Origin: Candidatus Woesearchaeota archaeon
GTDB lineage: Archaea; Nanobdellota; Nanobdellia; SCGC-AAA011-G17; UBA489
Length of the DNA stretch: 64,000 bases
Assembly: GCA_964343875.1 (NCBI GenBank)
Contig: CAYFJW010000001.1
Location: forward strand, 9,696-73,695
Reading direction: 5' to 3'
Below the pieces are notes generated by a model, which had not been told where the DNA came from, searched no databases, and saw nothing but the letters and a program-made list of their open reading frames with translations. This document shows, one piece after another, positions 4,524-61,356 of this stretch (position 1 is its first letter; each line of letters begins with the position of its first letter). Both the position numbers and the translations under genes were made by a program.

Positions 4524-5090
4524 ATGAGGATACCAAAGGGATTCAAATTGCTTGGCGCTGTAGCTGCATTAGCTGGCTTAAGCTTTATCGGAGCAAGAAA
4601 ACTAGATTCTAAGATGGATTTTACAGGAACGGACATTCCAGTTACACTCCAATCAGGAGAAATTGACGTTCCGGTTTACAACATGTTCACAGGCTTAAGA
4701 CCCGGGAGGTGTTCGGCATATGTTAGAAAAGCAGCTAAAGACTTATTCAATGAAAACTACTCCTTCTCAAACGCATGGGACAGAATTTATAATGATAAAG
4801 TTCTCACGGGATTGAATGACTTTGAATCGCTTGAAGACTTAGCAAAAAATGGAACAATGAACCCTGGAAACTTAGTTGGCGTAGTTTACCCAAACAGTCC
4901 AAACATGGATGGTGTTGATGCAAGAAATGAACCAAGGCAGTTTTCACATTTGCTTTTATACTTAGGGGATTCACCCGAAGGAGAACTCCTTTTCTCACAT
5001 AGAGTTGGAGACCAAACGCACGTTGATCCATTAAGTCACTTTAAACCGAATGGTTATGAAGCAAAGTACTTAATAGGAACTAAAAATTAG
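4524..5090 (+). CDS. Hypothetical membrane-anchored/secreted protein; possible papain-like (NlpC/P60-type) Cys-His fold
   Basis: N-terminal hydrophobic helix LLGAVAALAGLSFIG. Conserved-looking Cys (GRCSAYVRK) and downstream His (FSHLLLYLG). Fold call is weak. Confidence 0.45.
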   Translation: MRIPKGFKLLGAVAALAGLSFIGARKLDSKMDFTGTDIPVTLQSGEIDVPVYNMFTGLRPGRCSAYVRKAAKDLFNENYSFSNAWDRIYNDKVLTGLNDFESLEDLAKNGTMNPGNLVGVVYPNSPNMDGVDARNEPRQFSHLLLYLGDSPEGELLFSHRVGDQTHVDPLSHFKPNGYEAKYLIGTKN

Positions 5091-36698: not shown

Positions 36699-36757
36699 TA
36701 ACCAGTCGGCACCTAGCTATCGCCACCGTAGCTCAACGGTAGAGCATTTGCCTTGTA

Positions 36758-37201
36758 TGTCCACAAGGGATATAAAAACCATTGTCTTTTTTGACAGATG
36801 GTCTCAGAGAAAAAGAAAATTTCAAGAGAAGCGGAATTACGCTTTGCCTCTGAATTTGTGAAGAAAGGATACGACGTATTCTTTCCGATGTCGGAGTTTG
36901 GAGCTATAGACCTAGCGGTTCACAAAGATGGATGTTTTAAACGTGTCCAAGTGAAAGCTACAAAACCTACTAATGGGGGATTAACTGTTAAGTTGAGATC
37001 TACCAATAACTGGCAGGATAAGAGGTACACTACAAATGACGTTGATGGGATAGCTGCGTATGACTATATGTCTTGTAGAGGATATTTGTTCGACCTCAAA
37101 AAATTTGAAGGCCAATCACAAGTTGTATTAAGGACAAACCCCACAAAGAATAATCAAAAAAAGCTCGTTAACTCCGCATCAAAATTCCTGTGGTTCAAGT
37201 A
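36758..37201 (+). mobile_element. Bulge-helix-bulge tRNA intron (444 nt) carrying an endonuclease ORF
   Basis: hBHBh' fold: anticodon stem, then 3-nt bulge TAA (37200-02). Central helix CTTG (36752-55)/CAAG (37196-99), then 3-nt bulge TAT (36756-58). Inner helix GTCCACA (36759-65)/TGTGGTT (37189-95) with one G-U and one U-U. Cleavage after the second bulge nucleotide on each side gives 36757|36758 and 37201|37202. Confidence 0.75.
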
Positions 37202-37202
37202 A
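36798..37202 (+). CDS. Intron-encoded PD-(D/E)XK endonuclease-like protein (I-Ssp6803I / PDDEXK_5-like), 134 aa
   Basis: REAELRFASEFVKKGYDVFFPMSEFGAIDLAVHKDGCFKRVQVKAT (E...D...QxK core), then NDVDGIAAYD and LRTNPTKNNQ. These match my recollection of the family that includes the cyanobacterial tRNA-intron homing endonuclease. Confidence 0.7.
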   Translation: MVSEKKKISREAELRFASEFVKKGYDVFFPMSEFGAIDLAVHKDGCFKRVQVKATKPTNGGLTVKLRSTNNWQDKRYTTNDVDGIAAYDYMSCRGYLFDLKKFEGQSQVVLRTNPTKNNQKKLVNSASKFLWFK

Positions 37203-37244
37203 GCAAAAGGTTGGGAGTTCAAATCTCTCCGGTGGCTTTTCAAA

Positions 37245-43700: not shown

Positions 43701-46263
43701 TGACCCAAATAAACTTTCACCGGAATTAAAAAAGAACATAGAAGACGCATGGATATCAAGGGAGGTGGAAATACTAAGAAAAGAAAACCCAGACCTAACA
43801 GTAGAGGAAGCAACAAAACAAGCGAGTAGTAGGGTTGTAGCAGCATTAGGGGGTGCAGGTTATGTATACACCTCTCCAAACGGAGGATTAATTCTCTTTG
43901 AGCAAAAAGAACAAGGAAAAAATTCATTACTATCCCCAGATGGAAAAACATACGAACTATCTTCAACATCAGTTGAACAAAGAGTAGAACACAAACCACT
44001 AGTAACCTACTACACAGACGGTCCAAATGCAGGAAAGATACACAGAATAACTATTGATGCAACACATTATGCAGAAATAGAATACACTTCCGGGGGAAGA
44101 ATGCTTGAACCAAGAATATTTGCGCGCACAGATCCAAATGCAGAAATAAGGGTAGATGACACAGAATATGGAGGGGGAGGCATTAGGGATGTAACTGCCT
44201 TATGGAAACAAGAAGGAAAAGATGTATCCGACCTTGGGAAAGTAGAGTCATGTGTTGGAACTATTAACAGGGCAAAAGCCTCAAAAAGAGATATGGTTAT
44301 CTGTAACGGGGTTGAATATGCAATCAGAAATGACCCAGCAATAAAAGGTCCGGCATGTGTAGAGTTTTACAGTCCAACAGAATGTAAATTATTATTTAAT
44401 GCATGTGATCCAGTTCTTTGTCCATCAAGTAGATTTGACTTGGGAGGAGAATGGAGAGTTGATAATGTAGCAGAAACTGGAATAATAGGAAGCACAATCT
44501 TAGGACTACATAACTTTGGAATACCTGGGACGGATATAGGCTTTGATGGCGGACAAGTTGTAATGCCAATTTGCATAACTGGCGTTTATGCAGGATTACA
44601 AAATATTAGAACTGTATTAATGGAATATTCAGACTGCCTAAAAAGATCTTTAGTTGATGATGAGTCAGTTGGAATTTGTGATATGCTAAGAAGTTATTAC
44701 ATTTGCGATGTTCTTTGGAAGGAAGCAATTGCAATATTTAATATTAAGAGCGGATTAGTGGGCACAGTATTAAAATCAATACATGATGATGAAGGTTCAG
44801 AGTACACAGACTTTGATGCAAGCATGGACCAATCAATAAATGGATTGAAATACTTCACTCAAAGTTATGCAAAGAATACATTTGCACAATTCTCGGGCGG
44901 AGCCCTCCCAGAAATAGGTGCAGAGGTGTGTAAGGCCGCAGTATATGGAAAGGTTCCAGGAGTAGGGTCATTCACAGATAGATTAATGCAACCAGAAAGT
45001 CCGCCACAATTCACAGCAATAATGGACGTTGTCCCATATTCAGACATTCCATTCCCTCCACAAGCAACATACAAAGTATATTACAGAATGTACGCAGGAG
45101 CAAATGAACCAATTTCATTCTCTGTATATCTAAAACATCAAGCAATAGATGGACAAAGTGGATTGCCAATAGCCTGGCTAGTAAGAAACAAAAGACTAAC
45201 ACCGGATGCATTTGACTCAGAAAACATTGACTTCAATGCGCCAGAAGGATACAACCAAGTATGCATGACTTATAGTAGTCCAACTTATGGTGTAAGAGAA
45301 GAATGTGGCTTCGGGAAAACAACTTCTGGCTTCGCAGTTAACTACATCGCACAAAAAATGGCAGAAAAAGAAGCAGGTCAGGAAGGAATACAAACTGCAG
45401 AACAATGTAACCCTTCTGGTTCAAGTTTGAGTGGACCCTACACTAGCACCACATCAAAAGTTGGAGCCGTAGCAGTTGGAGGATTTTCTTCAGGATTATT
45501 GGAAACGGGAATAATAAGGGTTTGTTCAACTTTCCCTCCAGGAGAAGATGTAGATTGGAAGGAAGTAGGAGAATGTTGGGAAGGACCAAAACCAAATGAA
45601 GGAAGGCACTTAGGTTATTGTTGGTTACATCTGCCATCTGCAGAGAAGATTGTAACAAAGTACTCAGTAAACAAAGATATTGATTGGAACAACTTTGAAA
45701 AAACACTACCTAATGCAACACAAGGTGCCGTAGACAGAATAAGCGAATATGCCCGAAAGTTAGGTTTAAGATCAGTTTATCTAACTACCGAGGATATTGA
45801 AGAAGCAGAAAAGAGAATTGAAACTGCCATATCAAATGGCAAATATGAAGAAGCAATAAACATATACAGGGATGTAATTGACAATGGCGTTCTTACCGTA
45901 GTAAAACAAGTAGAGTTAAGACTTGGACTCGCAGACCTATATAGGGAGTTTGCAAGTTTAACTGAAAATGAGAAAAACAGTCAACCATCTACAACAACCC
46001 CTCCACCAACACCACCAACACCACCAGCAACCACAGTTACTGCCACAACAACCGCAACATCTGGGCCATTCTGGTACCAGGTAGAAAAGGGAGATACACT
46101 TGCAGATGCCACCAATCACTCAAAAACGTATCTTGTAAATGAAGTAATAAAGACAAACACAGCATTGACATATTTTGTTCTCGAAATGCATAATGGCACA
46201 ACATTTAGAGTTCACCAAACAACAATTGCTAGCCTAGCCAGTGCAGGTTGGACTCTCCTTTAA
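40762..46263 (+). CDS. Giant (1833 aa) secreted/cell-surface protein
   Basis: Sec-type signal MNKKLIAMFMIFLVLTLPVAYGQ, internal hydrophobic segment FCFGVYTAIAAWNFLKSVVG. Cys-rich region CVEFYSPTECKLLFNACDPVLCPSS, Thr/Pro linker TTTPPPTPPTPPATTVTATTTAT (about 45985..46062). Small C-terminal domain WYQVEKGDTLAD is LysM-like. Confidence 0.7.
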   Translation: MNKKLIAMFMIFLVLTLPVAYGQIIRTDNPDQGRNIGDELERRLTEPPTISDIVGEDIIINVKEYQPPILRTGLLEDQGAVVYAILSGTPSNPAITVPKIHDVDILSYNVITTPEDLPVRVGRPRYFRDRTQPLTYDNMGYLQIPIARIPKESNVPDNIIIEVDSRVLFDVSAGIGKSPTKMVIREKSAERGNVENQKYLNIYIEAEEISSDYAIFDIYDNNGNLIEDDLKLEKGKKSRTLRRNRFYSPGQVFDKFNVYLKDIKSGGRTLDIMVLRDGVPETHTVSEGESIYPGSGITLERIEIRGDNIHADFRTPSGRLQTAGFPRSIPDAAGEIDFGSLSIAENQSRSSGGPPIRICGGIELSSAIKDAETKLHTATKPEDYNLVLQDIKPCTDIFQKDATAVSKEHAIAMQALLATIESETSARLVEDASFGGVHTMAQGRLNEFLTKYWETYQTAEFSLGAIANDETVEELYRLSAEEYASVVSLNEGDLEVKYEGAASGDKTAIPEFYAQYNRAVIYHAKLKDLSRAVIEYNALLEMITKYEGNKKAEAEAIISPGRIQGRINLLTSFIKDPSGKSLRAEIDLKEKNDEIVTVVLDGSSITDYQLEGSQSTATVRVHNPEGSAAEEKHMLKEGDSVPFIEGSSPWVVEKITSNSIIIKPTYKDHRTTTIPRDNRNGISIPIKIDDKFTTQRVVLESVELHNEAHIIVSPNIEKAFSAARFNLHIPIEKRAFDLPLFSASIESEIDKTERLLEKLDDTLEKVGKIHEAWKKFCFGVYTAIAAWNFLKSVVGSGSGRAKDRASETFWKQNGDWCKSKGFSMDECVFEREDAYNTILENEEEAYEYAAKDTYTGDLSGVKKTPENKVQMENLAYLQKRMQQNNSTENTKDYLNAYVGVMADRNYEEELAKTGKSERELSDSERANLKLAVADRNAQMFGTLGNAYSNQKDYLQTLDVSRASIYLPKDNKVFLGDLAEFDPNKLSPELKKNIEDAWISREVEILRKENPDLTVEEATKQASSRVVAALGGAGYVYTSPNGGLILFEQKEQGKNSLLSPDGKTYELSSTSVEQRVEHKPLVTYYTDGPNAGKIHRITIDATHYAEIEYTSGGRMLEPRIFARTDPNAEIRVDDTEYGGGGIRDVTALWKQEGKDVSDLGKVESCVGTINRAKASKRDMVICNGVEYAIRNDPAIKGPACVEFYSPTECKLLFNACDPVLCPSSRFDLGGEWRVDNVAETGIIGSTILGLHNFGIPGTDIGFDGGQVVMPICITGVYAGLQNIRTVLMEYSDCLKRSLVDDESVGICDMLRSYYICDVLWKEAIAIFNIKSGLVGTVLKSIHDDEGSEYTDFDASMDQSINGLKYFTQSYAKNTFAQFSGGALPEIGAEVCKAAVYGKVPGVGSFTDRLMQPESPPQFTAIMDVVPYSDIPFPPQATYKVYYRMYAGANEPISFSVYLKHQAIDGQSGLPIAWLVRNKRLTPDAFDSENIDFNAPEGYNQVCMTYSSPTYGVREECGFGKTTSGFAVNYIAQKMAEKEAGQEGIQTAEQCNPSGSSLSGPYTSTTSKVGAVAVGGFSSGLLETGIIRVCSTFPPGEDVDWKEVGECWEGPKPNEGRHLGYCWLHLPSAEKIVTKYSVNKDIDWNNFEKTLPNATQGAVDRISEYARKLGLRSVYLTTEDIEEAEKRIETAISNGKYEEAINIYRDVIDNGVLTVVKQVELRLGLADLYREFASLTENEKNSQPSTTTPPPTPPTPPATTVTATTTATSGPFWYQVEKGDTLADATNHSKTYLVNEVIKTNTALTYFVLEMHNGTTFRVHQTTIASLASAGWTLL

Positions 46264-46264
46264 A

Positions 46265-47077
46265 ATGAAAATATTAAAACAAACTTTCAAAGTATACAAA
46301 AAAAGTTTCTTCACACTAGCATTTGCCCAATTAATGCTATTTTTCTCATCACTCTTCTTCTTAATTTTCGTAAAATGGAAGCTAACAGATTACCTCAGAA
46401 AGTTACAAGAATTCCAACCACAATTGCAACAAGTCTTAAACACCGTAGATGTTAACAACCCAGCAACGATTGATAACTCATTAACAGTAATTGAAGCATT
46501 AAACAGAGTTACAAATGAAGCAACACTATTTGCATATGTTCTTGTCCCATTAGTATTACTAATAATCTGGATTGCATTCCAAGGATTATTTTGGGGAACA
46601 ATAAAGAAACAAAAAATAAAACCAATAAAAAACTACTTAGTAAGACTTGCAATTCCATCAGTATTTATCTTGATTATATTCTCACAAATTGCATTCCCCA
46701 GACAGATAACAGACTTCTTTAACACTTTTGATGATAGCATCTTCAGAATAATAATCTCTGCATTCATAGGTCTCTACTTACTAACAATGTATTACATAAT
46801 CTTAGATAACCAAACACTAGCAAAAGCACTCAAACAAACATATAACTTGGCAATAAAGAAATTCTACAGATTCATACCATTGTATCTCCCTTCATTCCTA
46901 CTTACAACAATTCTATTTTGGTTAATGGCGATTGCATTGACACAAGAATACACAGGAACAACAGTTTATGCCTCATCCATAGAATTAATAATCATAAGTT
47001 TGATAACTTTAATTCTAGCAATGTTCTATAAAGTATTCCTACAAAACTTAGTTAACAAAGAAAAAGTGTGGGAGTAA
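46265..47077 (+). CDS. Polytopic membrane protein, last gene of the surface-protein operon
   Basis: Six or more hydrophobic helices. ATG at 46265 is 2 nt after the giant ORF stop. Its own stop overlaps the 3' end of tRNA-Leu on the opposite strand. Confidence 0.55.
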   Translation: MKILKQTFKVYKKSFFTLAFAQLMLFFSSLFFLIFVKWKLTDYLRKLQEFQPQLQQVLNTVDVNNPATIDNSLTVIEALNRVTNEATLFAYVLVPLVLLIIWIAFQGLFWGTIKKQKIKPIKNYLVRLAIPSVFILIIFSQIAFPRQITDFFNTFDDSIFRIIISAFIGLYLLTMYYIILDNQTLAKALKQTYNLAIKKFYRFIPLYLPSFLLTTILFWLMAIALTQEYTGTTVYASSIELIIISLITLILAMFYKVFLQNLVNKEKVWE

Positions 47078-47174
47078 GGATTCGAACCTTAGTAGGCACT
47101 AAGCCACTGGGTTTCTTAGGTTTTTGTTCTTAACCTCCTAAGCCCAGTCCATTTGACCGCTCTGGCACTCCCAC
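47067..47174 (-). tRNA. tRNA-Leu(UAG), class II, with a 24-nt canonical 37/38 BHB intron (47113..47136)
   Basis: Minus strand: acceptor GTGGGAG/CTCCCAC + A73, anticodon stem CTGGG/CCCAG, loop CTTAGG|A. Long variable arm TGGCTTAGTGCCTAC, T arm TAAGG-TTCGAAT-CCTTA. BHB: central CTTA/TAAG, bulges GGA and AAA, inner helix GGTT/AACC. Confidence 0.85.
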
Positions 47175-48023
47175 GCGTTTAAATCTTGAAAGACAATCGC
47201 GGAATACTCTATCTCGCGATTTACTATTTTTAAAAATATCTAATTTCTTGAGAATCAAAAAATTAGCATGCCCATAGATATCTAGCTCATATTGCCCATC
47301 TTTGTTTCTTCCAGAATTACATTTTTGAGGAGATTTACATTTTACGTTGTGTTTCAAAAGAATATTTCTAATTAATCTTAGAGTCCTAACATCTTTCCCA
47401 CAGAGGTTTACTGCATTTAATGTGTTATTTCTATTCCTTCTAACAACAGGACAGCCTTCAGCAGCATAATAACCTCTTACAAACCCTAGCCCTAGTTTCA
47501 AATCATTAAGACATCTCTTTAATGCAATTTCTTGCATGGTCAAAACAAGTCTATGGAATAAAACACTATGAAATCGAATATTAACTCTCTCTATGTTTCC
47601 TGGATTTGTTTTTGGAATACCTGGCCTATTGAACTGATCAGTTGACAAACCTAGCAACTCAGCCCAACGTTTGTTGATATTGATCAATTTAGAATTTTTT
47701 GAACCGATAACAATAAACTTCAAGTTAGCTTTATCTAAGCCAAAGTATTTTTTTAACCAACTTATGAAAAATTTTAATAGGTTTAGATCCGAATTTGTAA
47801 ATGAAATTCTTGTAGGCTTATTACTTTTTTCACCTTCACCAATGTAAAGACCTAAACCTTCAAAGAATTCCTGATCTACCGTAATTATTCTTTTAACAAC
47901 TATTGGTTTTGGCTGCCCGCCTTTTTTGTTTTTGCAAGAAACTCTAAGGAGATCATTCCTTAAACCTTCAAAAAGAGTATTCTCCGAAAAGCATCCAAGA
48001 GATTTAATGTCTAATTTAAACAT
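47130..48023 (-). CDS. Free-standing double-motif LAGLIDADG homing-endonuclease-like protein
   Basis: Motifs FFEGLGLYIGEGEK and LGFVRGYYAAEGC. The last 15 codons (RVGVPERSNGLGLGG) are read from the tRNA-Leu 5' half. The TAA stop (47130-47132) lies inside the tRNA intron. Confidence 0.75.
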   Translation of the reverse strand: MFKLDIKSLGCFSENTLFEGLRNDLLRVSCKNKKGGQPKPIVVKRIITVDQEFFEGLGLYIGEGEKSNKPTRISFTNSDLNLLKFFISWLKKYFGLDKANLKFIVIGSKNSKLININKRWAELLGLSTDQFNRPGIPKTNPGNIERVNIRFHSVLFHRLVLTMQEIALKRCLNDLKLGLGFVRGYYAAEGCPVVRRNRNNTLNAVNLCGKDVRTLRLIRNILLKHNVKCKSPQKCNSGRNKDGQYELDIYGHANFLILKKLDIFKNSKSRDRVFRDCLSRFKRVGVPERSNGLGLGG

Positions 48024-48057
48024 AAAACATTAAAAGAAGGCTTACTTAACAGCCTTC
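48024..48057 (-). terminator. Hairpin plus T-tract downstream of rpl37e
   Basis: Minus strand GAAGGCT-GTTAAGTA-AGCCTTC (48057..48036) followed by TTTTAATGTTTT. It sits directly upstream of the LAGLIDADG ATG. Confidence 0.5.
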
Positions 48058-48079
48058 ACTAAGAACCTAGTAAGTGCGA

Positions 48080-48328
48080 TTACTTACCCAACTTGAAAGT
48101 GTTCTTCTTTCTTTTATTCATATGCTGCTTAATCTTAGCAACAATTCTATTCTTACTAACAGTCTTTTTATGCCAGTTAAATCTCCTTAACTTAGCACTG
48201 TTTCCGTAGCCACAGCTACTACACACACTCTTAATTTTATGATAAGAAGCCTTTCCACACCGTCTACATCTGATGTGAAGTCTTCCTTTATTTCTCTTTA
48301 ATCCTTTTGCTGCCGTTCCCTTTGACAT
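48080..48328 (-). CDS. rpl37e: Ribosomal protein L37e
   Basis: MSKGTAAKG..., zinc ribbon CRRCGKASYH...CSSCGYG. Confidence 0.9.
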   Translation of the reverse strand: MSKGTAAKGLKRNKGRLHIRCRRCGKASYHKIKSVCSSCGYGNSAKLRRFNWHKKTVSKNRIVAKIKQHMNKRKKNTFKLGK

Positions 48329-48329
48329 C

Positions 48330-48554
48330 TTATTGTGGTGAGATTATTGTGATTGTATCTCCTCTAATGAACGTAGTTCCCAACTTTCGTTTAAGTTCTC
48401 CATTCTCAAACTCTTCAACATCGTCAAGAACAATGTTAATATGAATATCAAATGCCTGTAGAACGCCCACAAATTGCTTTCCGTTTTTAAGCTCAATGAG
48501 CACTCTCTTTCCTCGACTTTGATTTAATGAATCTAAAGGCCTGCTTGTCTCCAT
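48330..48554 (-). CDS. Sm-like (LSm) archaeal protein
   Basis: PLDSLNQSRGKRVLIELKNGKQFVGVLQAFDIHINIVLDDVEE...FIRGDTITIISP (Sm1 and Sm2 motifs). Start placed at METSRPL (ATG 48554). The track ORF extension to 48686 looks spurious. Confidence 0.85.
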   Translation of the reverse strand: METSRPLDSLNQSRGKRVLIELKNGKQFVGVLQAFDIHINIVLDDVEEFENGELKRKLGTTFIRGDTITIISPQ

Positions 48555-48661
48555 GGTTTTAACCCCCAAGTTGATTATACACATCCTCAAAAGAGAGTAT
48601 TTAAAGCTTATGGAACCTAAAAAGAAAGTCTTAAAAATAGAGAACCGAGAAAAATAATTCG

Positions 48662-49042
48662 ATGGCAAACGCACAATCACGTTCAAAAAGGAAGCCTACT
48701 GGCGGTAGATACGTTCCCATGAGATCCAAAAGATTAAGGGAATTAGCAAGACTTCCAACATTAACAAGGGTCGGAGAGAGACTAATTAAAACAATGAGAA
48801 AAAGGGGCGGAAAAACAAAAACAATCTCAATCACAGACACTACAGCAAACGTTTTTGATCCAAAAACAAAAAAATATTCTAAGGTAAAGATCGAACAAGT
48901 TGTTGAAAATCCAGCTAACAGACACTTTGTTAGAAGAAACATTCTCACAAGAGGTACAATAATCAAGACCTCCAAGGGAAACGCAAAAATACTTTCCCGA
49001 CCAGGCCAGGAAGGAGTGGTTAATGCGATTTTCGTTAAGTAA
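48662..49042 (+). CDS. rps8e: Ribosomal protein S8e
   Basis: SRSKRKPTGGRYVPMRSKR N-terminus and C-terminal GQEGVVNAIFV. Confidence 0.9.
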   Translation: MANAQSRSKRKPTGGRYVPMRSKRLRELARLPTLTRVGERLIKTMRKRGGKTKTISITDTTANVFDPKTKKYSKVKIEQVVENPANRHFVRRNILTRGTIIKTSKGNAKILSRPGQEGVVNAIFVK

Positions 49043-58791: not shown

Positions 58792-59322
58792 ATGGCAGCT
58801 AAGAAAACCTTCCAAGCAAATTTTGTTGGAGAAGGAGTAACGGCGGAGGATGGACCCAAACCTAGAGAACTCTATGACAAAAGCAGATTTGGAGAATTGG
58901 TTTCGGGCAAATTCAAATATTCATTATCAGAAGCACTCTTCTTACTTGAAAACAAAAAGATAGAAGTCCTAGACAGAAACAAAACACTAACAAAGGAAGA
59001 TTTCTTAAAAAAAGCAAGAAAGCTAGACAAGAACTTCTGGGTTAAATATGTAGTATTTTCTAACCTCAGAACTAAGGGCTACATTGTAAAAACAGCACTA
59101 AAATTCGGAGCGGACTTCAGAGTATATGATAAAGGAATCAAACCAGGACAAGACCACGCAAAATGGATTGTTTTCCCAGTACATGAATCAAACACATTAA
59201 CATGGCATGACTTCTCAGCCAAAAACAGAGTATCACATTCAACCAGAAAGAACCTTTTAATTGCAGTGGTAGACGAAGAAGATGACGTCACATACTACGA
59301 AATCGCTTGGAAAAAGCCATAA
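58792..59322 (+). CDS. endA: tRNA-splicing endonuclease EndA, short (176 aa) single-unit type
   Basis: LSEALFLLENKKIEV, YVVFSNLRTKGYIVKTALKFGADFRVY, HAKWIVFPV (catalytic Y/H/K context). The size matches homotetrameric alpha4 enzymes. Confidence 0.9.
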   Translation: MAAKKTFQANFVGEGVTAEDGPKPRELYDKSRFGELVSGKFKYSLSEALFLLENKKIEVLDRNKTLTKEDFLKKARKLDKNFWVKYVVFSNLRTKGYIVKTALKFGADFRVYDKGIKPGQDHAKWIVFPVHESNTLTWHDFSAKNRVSHSTRKNLLIAVVDEEDDVTYYEIAWKKP

Positions 59323-61162: not shown

Positions 61163-61302
61163 GTCTCGGTAGCTCAGTGGTTAGAGCACACCAAGTGGCC
61201 TAAAGGCGCAAGGGCTCAAACGGCTGTTATCCTTCTAGGGTAAGGCTGAAAACCCATAGGGCTGAGACCGTGAGGTCGGAGGTTCAAATCCTCCCCGGGA
61301 CG
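61163..61302 (+). tRNA. tRNA with doubly interrupted anticodon arm; best reading is tRNA-Asn(GUU) with two introns (61190..61219 and 61230..61266)
   Basis: Intact acceptor GTCTCGG/CCGGGAC + G73, D arm GCTC-AGTGGTTA-GAGC, T arm GGAGG-TTCAAAT-CCTCC. 67 extra nt lie in the anticodon arm. Joining 61163-89 + 61220-29 + 61267-302 gives stem CACGG/CCGTG and loop CTGTTAA (73 nt). Confidence 0.65.
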
Positions 61303-61356
61303 CTTTTTTCTCGCCAGAAAATCTTATAAATTGGTATAAAAAGAAATTAAAAGCAA

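What the first reader, a model, noticed from the sequence alone, without database searches (positions are those of the whole stretch)
47067..48023. Free-standing LAGLIDADG endonuclease ORF reads through the 5' half of tRNA-Leu(UAG) and terminates inside the tRNA's intron
A 297-aa double-motif LAGLIDADG ORF begins 13 nt after a terminator hairpin and has no stop before the tRNA. Its last 15 codons are tRNA positions 1-37 plus 8 nt of the 24-nt BHB intron, with the TAA at 47130-47132. Message and tRNA are therefore physically fused. RNase P cleavage at 47174 would leave a non-stop mRNA. A homing-type nuclease abutting an intron-containing tRNA suggests a degenerate or relocated mobile-intron ORF, or a nuclease that targets tRNA genes. 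On the other side, the stop codon of the opposite-strand membrane-protein gene (47075-47077) overlaps the tRNA's 3' end.
Basis: partly seen in the sequence, partly recalled or inferred. Interest (0 to 1): 0.6.

Follow-up and report, generated by a model that had tools for sequence, protein, structure and literature searches.

The report
Homing endonuclease gene docked on tRNA-Leu
A selfish DNA-cutting-enzyme gene has lodged between a ribosomal-protein gene and the only tRNA-Leu(UAG) gene of a tiny DPANN archaeon; sister genomes show the same site empty, filled by an unrelated nuclease or holding a wreck, and the nuclease nearly always comes with small tRNA introns, which suggests a testable route by which archaeal tRNA introns spread.

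Summary
A 297-codon ORF (47130-48023, minus strand) is an intact double-motif LAGLIDADG endonuclease. It runs 45 nt into a genuine tRNA-Leu(UAG) gene (47067-47174) and stops inside that gene's 24-nt bulge-helix-bulge intron.

It is not a relocated intron ORF. It is an insertion: four species of the same genus have L37e lying 4-36 nt from an intron-less tRNA-Leu(UAG). Two others carry an unrelated LAGLIDADG gene ("type B") at the same spot, and one carries a 190-nt wreck of it. The type A gene here and type B share the same 56-nt leader and first five codons, so nuclease bodies were swapped at one site.

All 13 close type-B relatives and all type-A relatives with DNA abut tRNA-Leu(UAG). Among 75 tRNA-Leu(UAG) loci of the order, 10 of 11 with a nuclease gene have introns at 30/31 or 37/38, against 20 of 62 without.

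In this genome, 7 of 10 free-standing LAGLIDADG ORFs abut a tRNA 5' end.

Best reading: a free-standing homing endonuclease gene parked in the tRNA's 5' flank. The introns either shield its target or hitch-hike with it.

The scan has seen this pattern on other DNA and elsewhere in this genome. I found no paper describing it.

The parts
48080..48328 (-). Ribosomal protein L37e gene, the conserved upstream flank of the insertion site. Sm - L37e - tRNA-Leu(UAG) is a conserved gene order in the order.
   Evidence: ORF list. The same gene lies directly upstream of tRNA-Leu(UAG) in genomes of the same genus and in metagenome loci L138 and L139.
48024..48079 (-). 56-nt leader module of the endonuclease cassette. 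It holds a 7-bp hairpin (48036-48057), a T-run, and an AU-rich hairpin around the start codon.
   Evidence: Fold z = -3.05. 62 of 71 nt, counting the first 15 coding nt, are identical to the leader of the unrelated type-B gene of G003; similarity stops after that. The module is absent from the empty sites.
47175..48023 (-). Body of the type-A LAGLIDADG endonuclease gene (283 codons), with an N-terminal beta-rich extension of about 50 residues.
   Evidence: Pfam LAGLIDADG_3, E=4e-10. AlphaFold2 model: pLDDT 94.5, pTM 0.91. Foldseek finds I-DmoI, intein endonucleases, I-AniI and I-Tsp061I at probability 1.0. The gene is single-copy in the genome.
47832..47855 (-). LAGLIDADG motif 1 (LGLYIGEG, residues 57-64). 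The presumed catalytic residue is Glu63; the family consensus has Asp here.
   Evidence: Translation, alignment consensus GxGLYxGDG, and helix 51-63 of the model.
47454..47483 (-). LAGLIDADG motif 2 (FVRGYYAAEG, residues 181-190). The presumed catalytic residue is Glu189.
   Evidence: Translation. G184 and G190 are invariant and A187 nearly so across 42 relatives. The motif forms helix 175-189 of the model.
47225..47236 (-). TATA-like TTTTTAAAAATA inside the last codons of the ORF, 51-62 nt upstream of tRNA +1. It may be an internal promoter for the tRNA; this is inferred.
   Evidence: Sequence. A TTTTTAAA element lies at -55 to -70 in most type-A and type-B loci. Genomes without the endonuclease gene have a TATA box at about -30 instead.
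47130..47174 (-). Tail of the ORF: 14 codons plus TAA read from the tRNA 5' exon and the first 7 nt of the intron. It is not part of the folded protein.
   Evidence: The reading frame and stop position differ among relatives, so the tail looks incidental.
47137..47174 (-). tRNA-Leu(UAG) 5' exon (canonical positions 1-37; anticodon at 47138-47140).
   Evidence: Rfam tRNA match, 45.4 bits. Four of its 38 nt differ from the HEG-less G007 of the same genus, including a compensated 12:23 pair, whereas the 3' exon shows 0 of 45 differences.
47113..47136 (-). 24-nt intron at position 37/38 with a bulge-helix-bulge geometry.
   Evidence: The fold shows C32-G37 paired to CCUAAG of the intron with a 3-nt 3' bulge. 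A canonical 4-bp helix plus a GGUU/AACC h' helix is also possible. The splicing endonuclease gene is present. The intron is absent from five genomes of the same genus.
47067..47112 (-). tRNA-Leu(UAG) 3' exon with discriminator A. This is the only tRNA-Leu(UAG) gene of the genome.
   Evidence: the pattern search finds one match in G000.
46241..47077 (+). Opposite-strand membrane protein gene, the conserved downstream neighbour. Its last four codons overlap the tRNA 3' end.
   Evidence: The orthologue in G007 ends flush with the tRNA.
59035..59295 (+). tRNA splicing endonuclease (EndA) catalytic domain, needed to remove the intron.
   Evidence: PF01974, E=2.5e-30, at G000:C1:68730-68990, converted to window coordinates.

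Best explanation
The ORF is a free-standing homing endonuclease gene of the single-chain LAGLIDADG type. It is a selfish element parked between L37e and the 5' end of the sole tRNA-Leu(UAG) gene of a Woesearchaeota-type DPANN archaeon.

Shown:
- It is an insertion relative to genomes of the same genus.
- The same site holds an unrelated LAGLIDADG gene, or a wreck of one, in other genomes of the genus.
- The two nuclease types share one leader module.
- Each lineage is faithful to tRNA-Leu(UAG) across families of the order.
- The protein has a confident I-DmoI-like fold with both acidic residues in place.
- Carriage of the gene goes with introns in the anticodon arm.

Inferred:
- The enzyme cuts tRNA-Leu(UAG) alleles that lack it, probably in the anticodon stem-loop.
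- The break is repaired from a carrier allele using the conserved L37e and tRNA flanks. This copies in the leader, the nuclease gene, the 5' exon and the intron.
- The intron at 37/38 (in type B also 30/31) splits the recognition site and so protects the carrier, as in collaborative homing.
- The site is harmless to the host, because RNase P trims whatever lies 5' of the tRNA and EndA removes the intron.
- The read-through into the tRNA is a by-product of the cassette ending flush with tRNA +1. It may keep expression low, because processing of the tRNA would leave a message without a stop codon.
For: The tRNA and ORF are verified.

State of the site in the genus:
- Empty sites: G002, G004, G005 and G007 have L37e 4-36 nt from an 84-nt intron-less tRNA.
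- Occupied sites: G006 and G003 carry type-B LAGLIDADG genes of 225 and 268 codons that also read into the tRNA.
- Wreck: G008 keeps the leader, the first codons and the last ~25 codons of type B.

Types A and B share only the tRNA-encoded tail by BLASTP. Their leaders plus the first five codons are 87% identical.

Specificity: 13 of 13 close type-B relatives from five families, and type-A relatives L138 and L139 (41-43% identity), all abut tRNA-Leu(UAG) behind Sm-L37e. The tails of P0002 and P0003 are translated tRNA.

Introns: 10 of 11 loci with the gene have introns, against 20 of 62 without (Fisher p=3.8e-4). Within genera that hold a carrier, the figures are 10/11 against 3/17 (p=2.7e-4).

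The 5' exon has 4 differences from G007 and the 3' exon none.

Fold and catalytic residues. RNase P RNA and EndA are present.

Genome-wide, 7 of 10 free-standing LAGLIDADG ORFs abut tRNA 5' ends.
Against: - No cleavage activity, target site or transcript has been measured.
- One type-B carrier (G093) has an intron-less tRNA, and four of the seven tRNAs that have an endonuclease gene at their 5' end in this genome have no intron. An intron is therefore not required for the arrangement.
- Twenty loci have introns but no nuclease gene and no detectable relic.
- The genomes compared are related, so the Fisher tests overstate the support.
- The pattern search covers only 75 of 240 genomes and only introns up to 30 nt.
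- The excess of differences in the 5' exon rests on four bases.
- Motif 1 carries Glu where the family consensus has Asp.
Confidence: 0.8

Rival explanations
1. It is the same selfish endonuclease, but the intron is not its shield. The recognition site spans the 5' end of the tRNA and is destroyed by the insertion itself or by base changes in the D-stem. The introns only hitch-hike, because they lie within 40 bp of the gene and are co-converted with it.
For: G093 carries type B with an intron-less tRNA that has a compensated 10:25 change. G000 has a compensated 12:23 change. In this genome the endonuclease genes in front of tRNA-Ala, Arg(GCG), Ser(CGA) and Thr(GGU) have intron-less partners.
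Against: The DNA upstream of tRNA +1 is not conserved between lineages: the spacers are 4-45 nt long and differ in sequence. A site straddling the junction would therefore be half unconserved. Introns cluster at two positions, 30/31 and 37/38, in carriers from five families. The wreck in G008 sits beside an intron-less tRNA.
Confidence: 0.3
2. The gene is a dead or dying copy with no present activity. It is intact only because it arrived recently.
For: Two other LAGLIDADG ORFs of this genome, those in front of tRNA-Tyr and tRNA-Arg(UCU), carry in-frame stops. G008 and G078 hold relics at this very site. No Shine-Dalgarno sequence or own promoter is visible, and the start codon sits in a hairpin.
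Against: The frame is uninterrupted over 283 codons. The model is confident (pLDDT 94.5). Both acidic residues and the invariant glycines are kept. A 65%-identical relative of full length exists.
Confidence: 0.12
3. The protein is a domesticated LAGLIDADG protein with a host role at the tRNA locus, for example a maturase-like helper for processing the intron-bearing pre-tRNA, or a WhiA-like regulator.
For: It co-occurs with introns. The fold search also finds the bI3 maturase and WhiA.
Against: The gene is absent from four of eight compared genomes of the genus, replaced by an unrelated lineage in two, and decayed in one. BHB introns are cut by EndA, which is present. The catalytic acidic residues are retained. 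Twenty intron-bearing loci manage without it.
Confidence: 0.05
4. One reading: the ORF once lay inside the tRNA intron, or inside a larger mobile intron, and was relocated or left behind as the intron degenerated.
For: This genome has endonuclease genes inside an rRNA intron. According to an earlier scan note that I did not check, it also has one inside a 444-nt tRNA-Thr intron.
Against: No relative of either type has the ORF inside the tRNA-Leu intron. No RNA family other than tRNA matches the region. No stranded tRNA fragment lies upstream of the ORF: the local alignment is no better than shuffles, 99 and 196 of 1000.
Confidence: 0.04

Closest known systems
Collaborative homing: free-standing endonuclease F-CphI next to the ORF-less group I intron of psbA in cyanophage S-PM2 (Zeng, Bonocora and Shub 2009, as described in PMC6083498; see also T4 mobE/I-TevIII, PMC2790892)
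   Same: A nuclease gene lies beside, not inside, a gene whose short ORF-less intron is absent from alleles that lack the nuclease. The proposed logic is the same: the intron blocks self-cleavage and the nuclease mobilises the intron.
   Different: The host here is an archaeon, not a phage. The enzyme is LAGLIDADG, not Endo VII or HNH type. The intron is a protein-spliced BHB intron in a tRNA, not a ribozyme in a protein gene. The nuclease ORF is flush with the host gene and reads into it. Cleavage and protection are untested here.
I-DmoI and other archaeal single-chain LAGLIDADG homing endonucleases (I-Tsp061I, I-PorI) and intein endonucleases
   Same: The fold is the same: two LAGLIDADG helices, each ending in an acidic residue followed by Gly. 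The Pfam family is LAGLIDADG_3. The host is archaeal.
   Different: Those enzymes are encoded inside rRNA BHB introns or inteins and are removed by splicing. This one is free-standing in the 5' flank of a tRNA. It has an extra N-terminal beta-rich segment of about 50 residues and only 15-17% identity to I-DmoI.
Free-standing homing endonuclease genes of T-even phages, e.g. SegB in the T4 tRNA gene cluster (from memory) and mobE (PMC2790892)
   Same: These are intergenic selfish nuclease genes that spread by double-strand-break repair with co-conversion of flanking markers. SegB is likewise associated with tRNA genes.
   Different: They belong to different enzyme families (GIY-YIG, HNH). The phage genes keep their own stop codons and are not tied one-to-one to a tRNA identity.
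Mobile endonuclease ORFs of fungal mitochondria fused in frame to a host gene end (named in earlier scan notes; not read here)
   Same: The endonuclease ORF shares codons with the neighbouring host gene, and presence or absence varies between close relatives.
   Different: Those ORFs fuse to the 3' ends of protein genes and often duplicate a piece of the host gene. Here the partner is the 5' end of a tRNA, and no duplicated piece was found.
tRNA intron transposition in Thermoproteales (Fujishima et al. 2010, cited in PMC10714607)
   Same: Archaeal BHB tRNA introns behave as mobile DNA and appear at canonical and non-canonical positions.
   Different: No protein driver was identified there. Here a nuclease gene sits next to the introns and offers a candidate mechanism.

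Membership tests
LAGLIDADG homing endonucleases (single-chain, double-motif) | Two LAGLIDADG helices, each ending in an acidic residue followed by Gly | tested here: met
   Motif 1 is LGLYIGE63G and motif 2 is GYYAAE189G. They lie at the ends of helices 51-63 and 175-189.
LAGLIDADG homing endonucleases (single-chain, double-motif) | Profile match to a LAGLIDADG family | tested here: met
   PF14528 LAGLIDADG_3, 40.3 bits against a cut-off of 22.5, with two stretches.
LAGLIDADG homing endonucleases (single-chain, double-motif) | Pseudo-dimeric alpha-beta-beta-alpha-beta-beta-alpha fold | tested here: met
   The AF2 model has pLDDT 94.5. Foldseek finds I-DmoI at probability 1.0 with target TM-score up to 0.70.
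LAGLIDADG homing endonucleases (single-chain, double-motif) | Site-specific double-strand cleavage of a long target | not testable with these tools
   This needs recombinant protein and substrates carrying the empty allele.
LAGLIDADG homing endonucleases (single-chain, double-motif) | Mobility: presence or absence at a fixed site among close relatives | tested here: met
   Among eight genomes of the genus, four sites are empty, three are occupied (two lineages) and one holds a relic.
Collaborative homing (free-standing endonuclease plus ORF-less intron) | The nuclease gene is adjacent to an intron-bearing gene, and the intron is absent where the nuclease is absent | tested here: met
   In the genus, 3 of 3 carriers have introns and 0 of 5 non-carriers do. 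In the order the figures are 10/11 against 20/62. Exceptions exist: G093, and the 20 intron-only loci.
Collaborative homing (free-standing endonuclease plus ORF-less intron) | The nuclease cuts the intron-less allele at or near the intron insertion site, and the intron prevents cutting | not testable with these tools
   There is only indirect support: the introns cluster at 30/31 and 37/38.
Intron-encoded homing endonuclease | The ORF lies inside the intron of its host gene | tested here: not met
   The ORF lies 5' of tRNA +1. The intron is 24 nt long and holds only the stop codon.
Archaeal bulge-helix-bulge intron | The exon-intron helix is flanked by 3-nt bulges at the splice sites, and the splicing endonuclease is present | tested here: met
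   The fold shows the anticodon loop paired to the intron 3' part with a 3-nt AAA bulge. The 5' bulge is present only in the alternative canonical fold. EndA is present. Splicing itself was not observed.

The most novel reading that the evidence does not exclude
Gene conversion driven by endonuclease genes docked at tRNA 5' ends is a main engine that spreads BHB introns in archaeal tRNA genes, and perhaps selects for them, at both canonical (37/38) and non-canonical (30/31) positions. Rival nuclease lineages displace one another at the same tRNA through a shared leader module. The tRNA 5' flank, cleared by RNase P, would then serve as a third kind of silent harbour for homing endonuclease genes, beside introns and inteins.
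Probability: 0.4. Interest if true: 0.8.

Novelty: new variant of a known kind. Interest (0 to 1): 0.66.

Why it matters
How archaeal tRNA genes gain introns, especially at odd positions, and why those introns behave as mobile DNA are open questions; tRNA intron transposition in Thermoproteales has no known driver (PMC10714607).

This locus offers a natural before-and-after series within one genus: empty site, two competing nuclease lineages, and a wreck. It also shows a link between nuclease carriage and introns across the order.

This turns the question into a bench test: does the enzyme cut the intron-less tRNA-Leu gene, and does the 24-nt intron protect it?

It also suggests that the RNase P-trimmed 5' flank of a tRNA can play the role that introns and inteins play for other homing endonucleases. 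Finally, these enzymes would be new long-site nucleases with natural targets in tRNA genes.

Tried and rejected
I could not fetch the contigs of P0002 (65% identity) or P0003. P0003 was recovered as L138 through a metagenome scan. The DNA of P0002 was never obtained, so no dN/dS could be computed.
- The first metagenome scan with the single protein found nothing.
- Stranded tRNA fragment upstream of the ORF, as earlier scan notes report at other tRNAs: the local alignment of the 56-nt spacer to the tRNA is not above shuffles. Rejected here.
- HEG relics in the 20 intron-bearing, nuclease-free loci: none found by fragment-level hmmsearch.
- Large upstream ORFs in seven nuclease-free loci: four are RNA polymerase subunit D, thymidine kinase, a GTPase and a radical SAM enzyme; three have no Pfam match; none is LAGLIDADG.
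- Group I intron or any other RNA family in 46000-49000: only the tRNA and a chance-level sR4 hit.
- ARAGORN's tRNAs with giant introns (444, 454 and 874 nt) were not confirmed by cmscan at E<=0.01. I do not rely on them.
- ARAGORN miscalls the anticodon of intron-bearing tRNAs, so identities were read by eye.
- The idea that the tRNA-encoded tail is a conserved part of the protein is rejected. The frame and stop position differ among relatives.
- A canonical TATA box at -30 inside the last codons is seen in L138, L139 and several type-B genes, but not in this window.
- Literature: seven full-text searches found no description of LAGLIDADG genes docked at archaeal tRNA 5' ends.
Full report
**What is there.** On the minus strand an ORF of 297 codons runs from 48023 to 47130. 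Rfam's tRNA model matches 47174-47067 at 45.4 bits with a 24-nt insert in the anticodon loop. Read by eye, this is tRNA-Leu(UAG): acceptor GTGGGAG/CTCCCAC, a long variable arm, and anticodon at 47140-47138. The 5' exon is 47174-47137, the intron 47136-47113 and the 3' exon 47112-47067. The last 14 codons of the ORF and its TAA (47132-47130) are therefore tRNA exon plus 7 nt of intron. The intron pairs with the anticodon loop and leaves a 3-nt bulge at the 3' splice site; a canonical bulge-helix-bulge fold with a GGUU/AACC outer helix is also possible. The genome (746 kb, 9 contigs, 96% complete) has a splicing endonuclease gene and an RNase P RNA. A genome of the same family is titled Candidatus Woesearchaeota archaeon UBA489, so this is a DPANN archaeon.

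**The protein.** Pfam LAGLIDADG_3 matches at E=4e-10. An AlphaFold2 model built on 42 relatives has mean pLDDT 94.5 and pTM 0.91. Foldseek finds I-DmoI, intein endonucleases, I-AniI and I-Tsp061I at probability 1.0. The two motif helices end in Glu63-Gly64 and Glu189-Gly190. The glycines are invariant or nearly so in the family. About 50 N-terminal residues form extra beta strands. The gene is single-copy in the genome. The subfamily is rare: only three clusters at E<1e-30 among 1.8 billion representatives.

**It is an insertion.** The gene order S8e / Sm / L37e / tRNA-Leu(UAG) / opposite-strand membrane protein is shared by the genus. In G002, G004, G005 and G007 the L37e stop lies 4-36 nt from an 84-nt intron-less tRNA, with no endonuclease gene. 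In G000 about 905 nt lie between them. In G006 and G003 the same gap holds a different LAGLIDADG gene ("type B", 225 and 268 codons, 50% identical to each other) that also runs into the tRNA. By BLASTP, type A and type B share nothing but the tRNA-encoded tail. G008 keeps a 190-nt wreck: the leader, the first codons and the last ~25 codons of type B.

**A shared leader.** The 56 nt after the L37e stop and the first five codons (MF[K/E]LD) are 62/71 identical between the type-A cassette of G000 and the type-B cassette of G003. Similarity then stops abruptly. The leader is absent from the empty sites. One nuclease body has therefore replaced another between a common leader and the tRNA. The tRNA 5' exon of G000 differs from G007 at four positions, including a compensated 12:23 pair, while the 45 nt compared in the 3' exon are identical. 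This fits a conversion tract ending near the intron, but it rests on few bases.

**Fidelity to one tRNA.** All 13 close type-B relatives (E<1e-46) come from five families of the order, and all sit flush against a tRNA-Leu(UAG). The two type-A relatives recovered with DNA (L138 and L139, 41-43% identity) lie between L37e and an intron-bearing tRNA-Leu(UAG). The tails of P0002 and P0003 are translated tRNA. More distant type-B-like genes abut other tRNAs. More distant type-A-like genes (24-35% identity, 300-420 aa) mostly do not abut any tRNA.

**Introns.** A pattern search recovered 75 distinct tRNA-Leu(UAG) loci from 75 of 240 genomes. I fetched their upstream DNA.
- Eleven loci carry a type-A or type-B gene, and 10 of these have an intron at 30/31, at 37/38 or at both. 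G093 is the exception.
- Two loci hold relics, one with introns and one without.
- Sixty-two loci have no such gene, and 20 of these have introns. None of the large upstream ORFs checked in this group is LAGLIDADG.

Fisher's test gives p=3.8e-4. Restricted to genera that hold a carrier, the figures are 10/11 against 3/17, p=2.7e-4. The genomes are related, so these figures overstate independence. All four type-A loci have the 37/38 intron.

**The genome-wide habit.** LAGLIDADG_3 hits in G000, compared with tRNAs confirmed by cmscan, show that 7 of 10 free-standing LAGLIDADG ORFs end between -2 and +87 of a same-strand tRNA start. The partners are Leu(UAG), Ala(GGC), Arg(GCG), Ser(CGA), Thr(GGU), Tyr and Arg(UCU). 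The ORFs in front of Tyr and Arg(UCU) carry in-frame stops. One further gene lies in a 16S rRNA insertion, one converges on the 5S rRNA gene, and four are inteins. Only three of the seven partner tRNAs have introns, so an intron is not a requirement of the arrangement.

**Expression.** tRNA-Leu(UAG) loci without the gene in other genera have a TATA box near -30. Three of the four empty sites of this genus have none there, so the tRNA is probably co-transcribed with Sm-L37e and released by RNase P. In G000 a TATA-like run lies at 47225-47236, 51-62 nt upstream of the tRNA, and similar runs occur in most type-A and type-B genes. Whether the tRNA comes from read-through or from an internal start is not known. 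If RNase P cuts a joint transcript, the message loses its stop codon but only its 14 non-structural tail codons. The start codon sits at the top of an AU-rich hairpin behind a 7-bp hairpin with a T-run, and neither hairpin shows covariation.

**Reading.** The best-supported account is a free-standing homing endonuclease gene that uses the 5' flank of a conserved tRNA gene as a harmless harbour and spreads by break repair between the conserved L37e and tRNA flanks. The introns either split its target, as in collaborative homing (PMC6083498), or are carried along by co-conversion. I put the selfish-endonuclease reading at 0.8 and the intron-as-shield step at roughly 0.45. The rivals are a dead copy, a domesticated protein and a relocated intron ORF; the evidence for and against each is given in its own section.

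**Novelty.** Seven full-text searches found no description of this layout. Known relatives of the idea are phage collaborative homing and tRNA intron transposition in Thermoproteales. Earlier notes of this scan report the same habit at other tRNAs in other DPANN genomes and at four other tRNAs of this genome. They are AI notes, not independent evidence. I re-derived the adjacency for this genome myself. I tested their "stranded 5' end" idea here, with a negative result.

**Limits.** The pattern search misses long introns and diverged tRNAs. ARAGORN's anticodon calls for intron-bearing tRNAs are unreliable.

Noticed in passing
window 36722-37237 (+): ARAGORN with intron detection calls a tRNA-Thr(UGU) with a 444-nt intron. 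cmscan at E<=0.01 did not report it. An earlier scan note says the intron encodes a PD-(D/E)XK endonuclease-like protein. I did not check this.
   Followed up: partly
G000 contig C2:102200-102907 (outside the window): A LAGLIDADG ORF lies inside an insertion of about 630 nt in the 16S rRNA gene: the SSU model positions 264-1478 are spread over 1845 nt.
   Followed up: partly
G000 contig C8:3916-4593 (+) and 4584-4701 (-) (outside the window): A 226-codon LAGLIDADG ORF converges on the 5S rRNA gene and overlaps its 3' end by about 10 nt. It is docked on an rRNA gene rather than a tRNA gene.
   Followed up: no
G000 contig C2:42934-43803 (outside the window): A type-B-like LAGLIDADG open frame fills the gap between tRNA-Leu(UAA) and tRNA-Thr(GGU) and stays open through the whole tRNA-Thr, with its stop at +85.
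   Followed up: partly
loci L017, L019, L042, L043, L076-L078, L084, L138 and window 47225-47236: A TTTTTAAA run lies 55-70 nt upstream of tRNA +1 in both unrelated nuclease types. It may be a shared internal promoter, or merely a shared F-L-K helix in AT-rich codons.
   Followed up: no
L080 (G087) versus L078 (G085): G087 has a 30/31 intron identical to that of its carrier sister G085, but no nuclease ORF in the 506 nt of upstream DNA available. This may be a very recent loss, or an effect of the contig end.
   Followed up: no
L004:397-533 (-) (genome G030): A strong match to Rfam RT-16 RNA (102 bits) lies about 1 kb from a distant type-A-like LAGLIDADG ORF.
   Followed up: no
window 48492-48547 (+): A weak sR4 C/D-box sRNA-like match (18.2 bits, E=0.52) lies opposite the Sm gene. 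It is probably chance.
   Followed up: no
window 61163-61303 (+): ARAGORN calls a 'tRNA-Leu(GAG)' here with a 69-nt intron. An earlier scan note reads it as a two-intron tRNA-Asn. I did not examine it.
   Followed up: no
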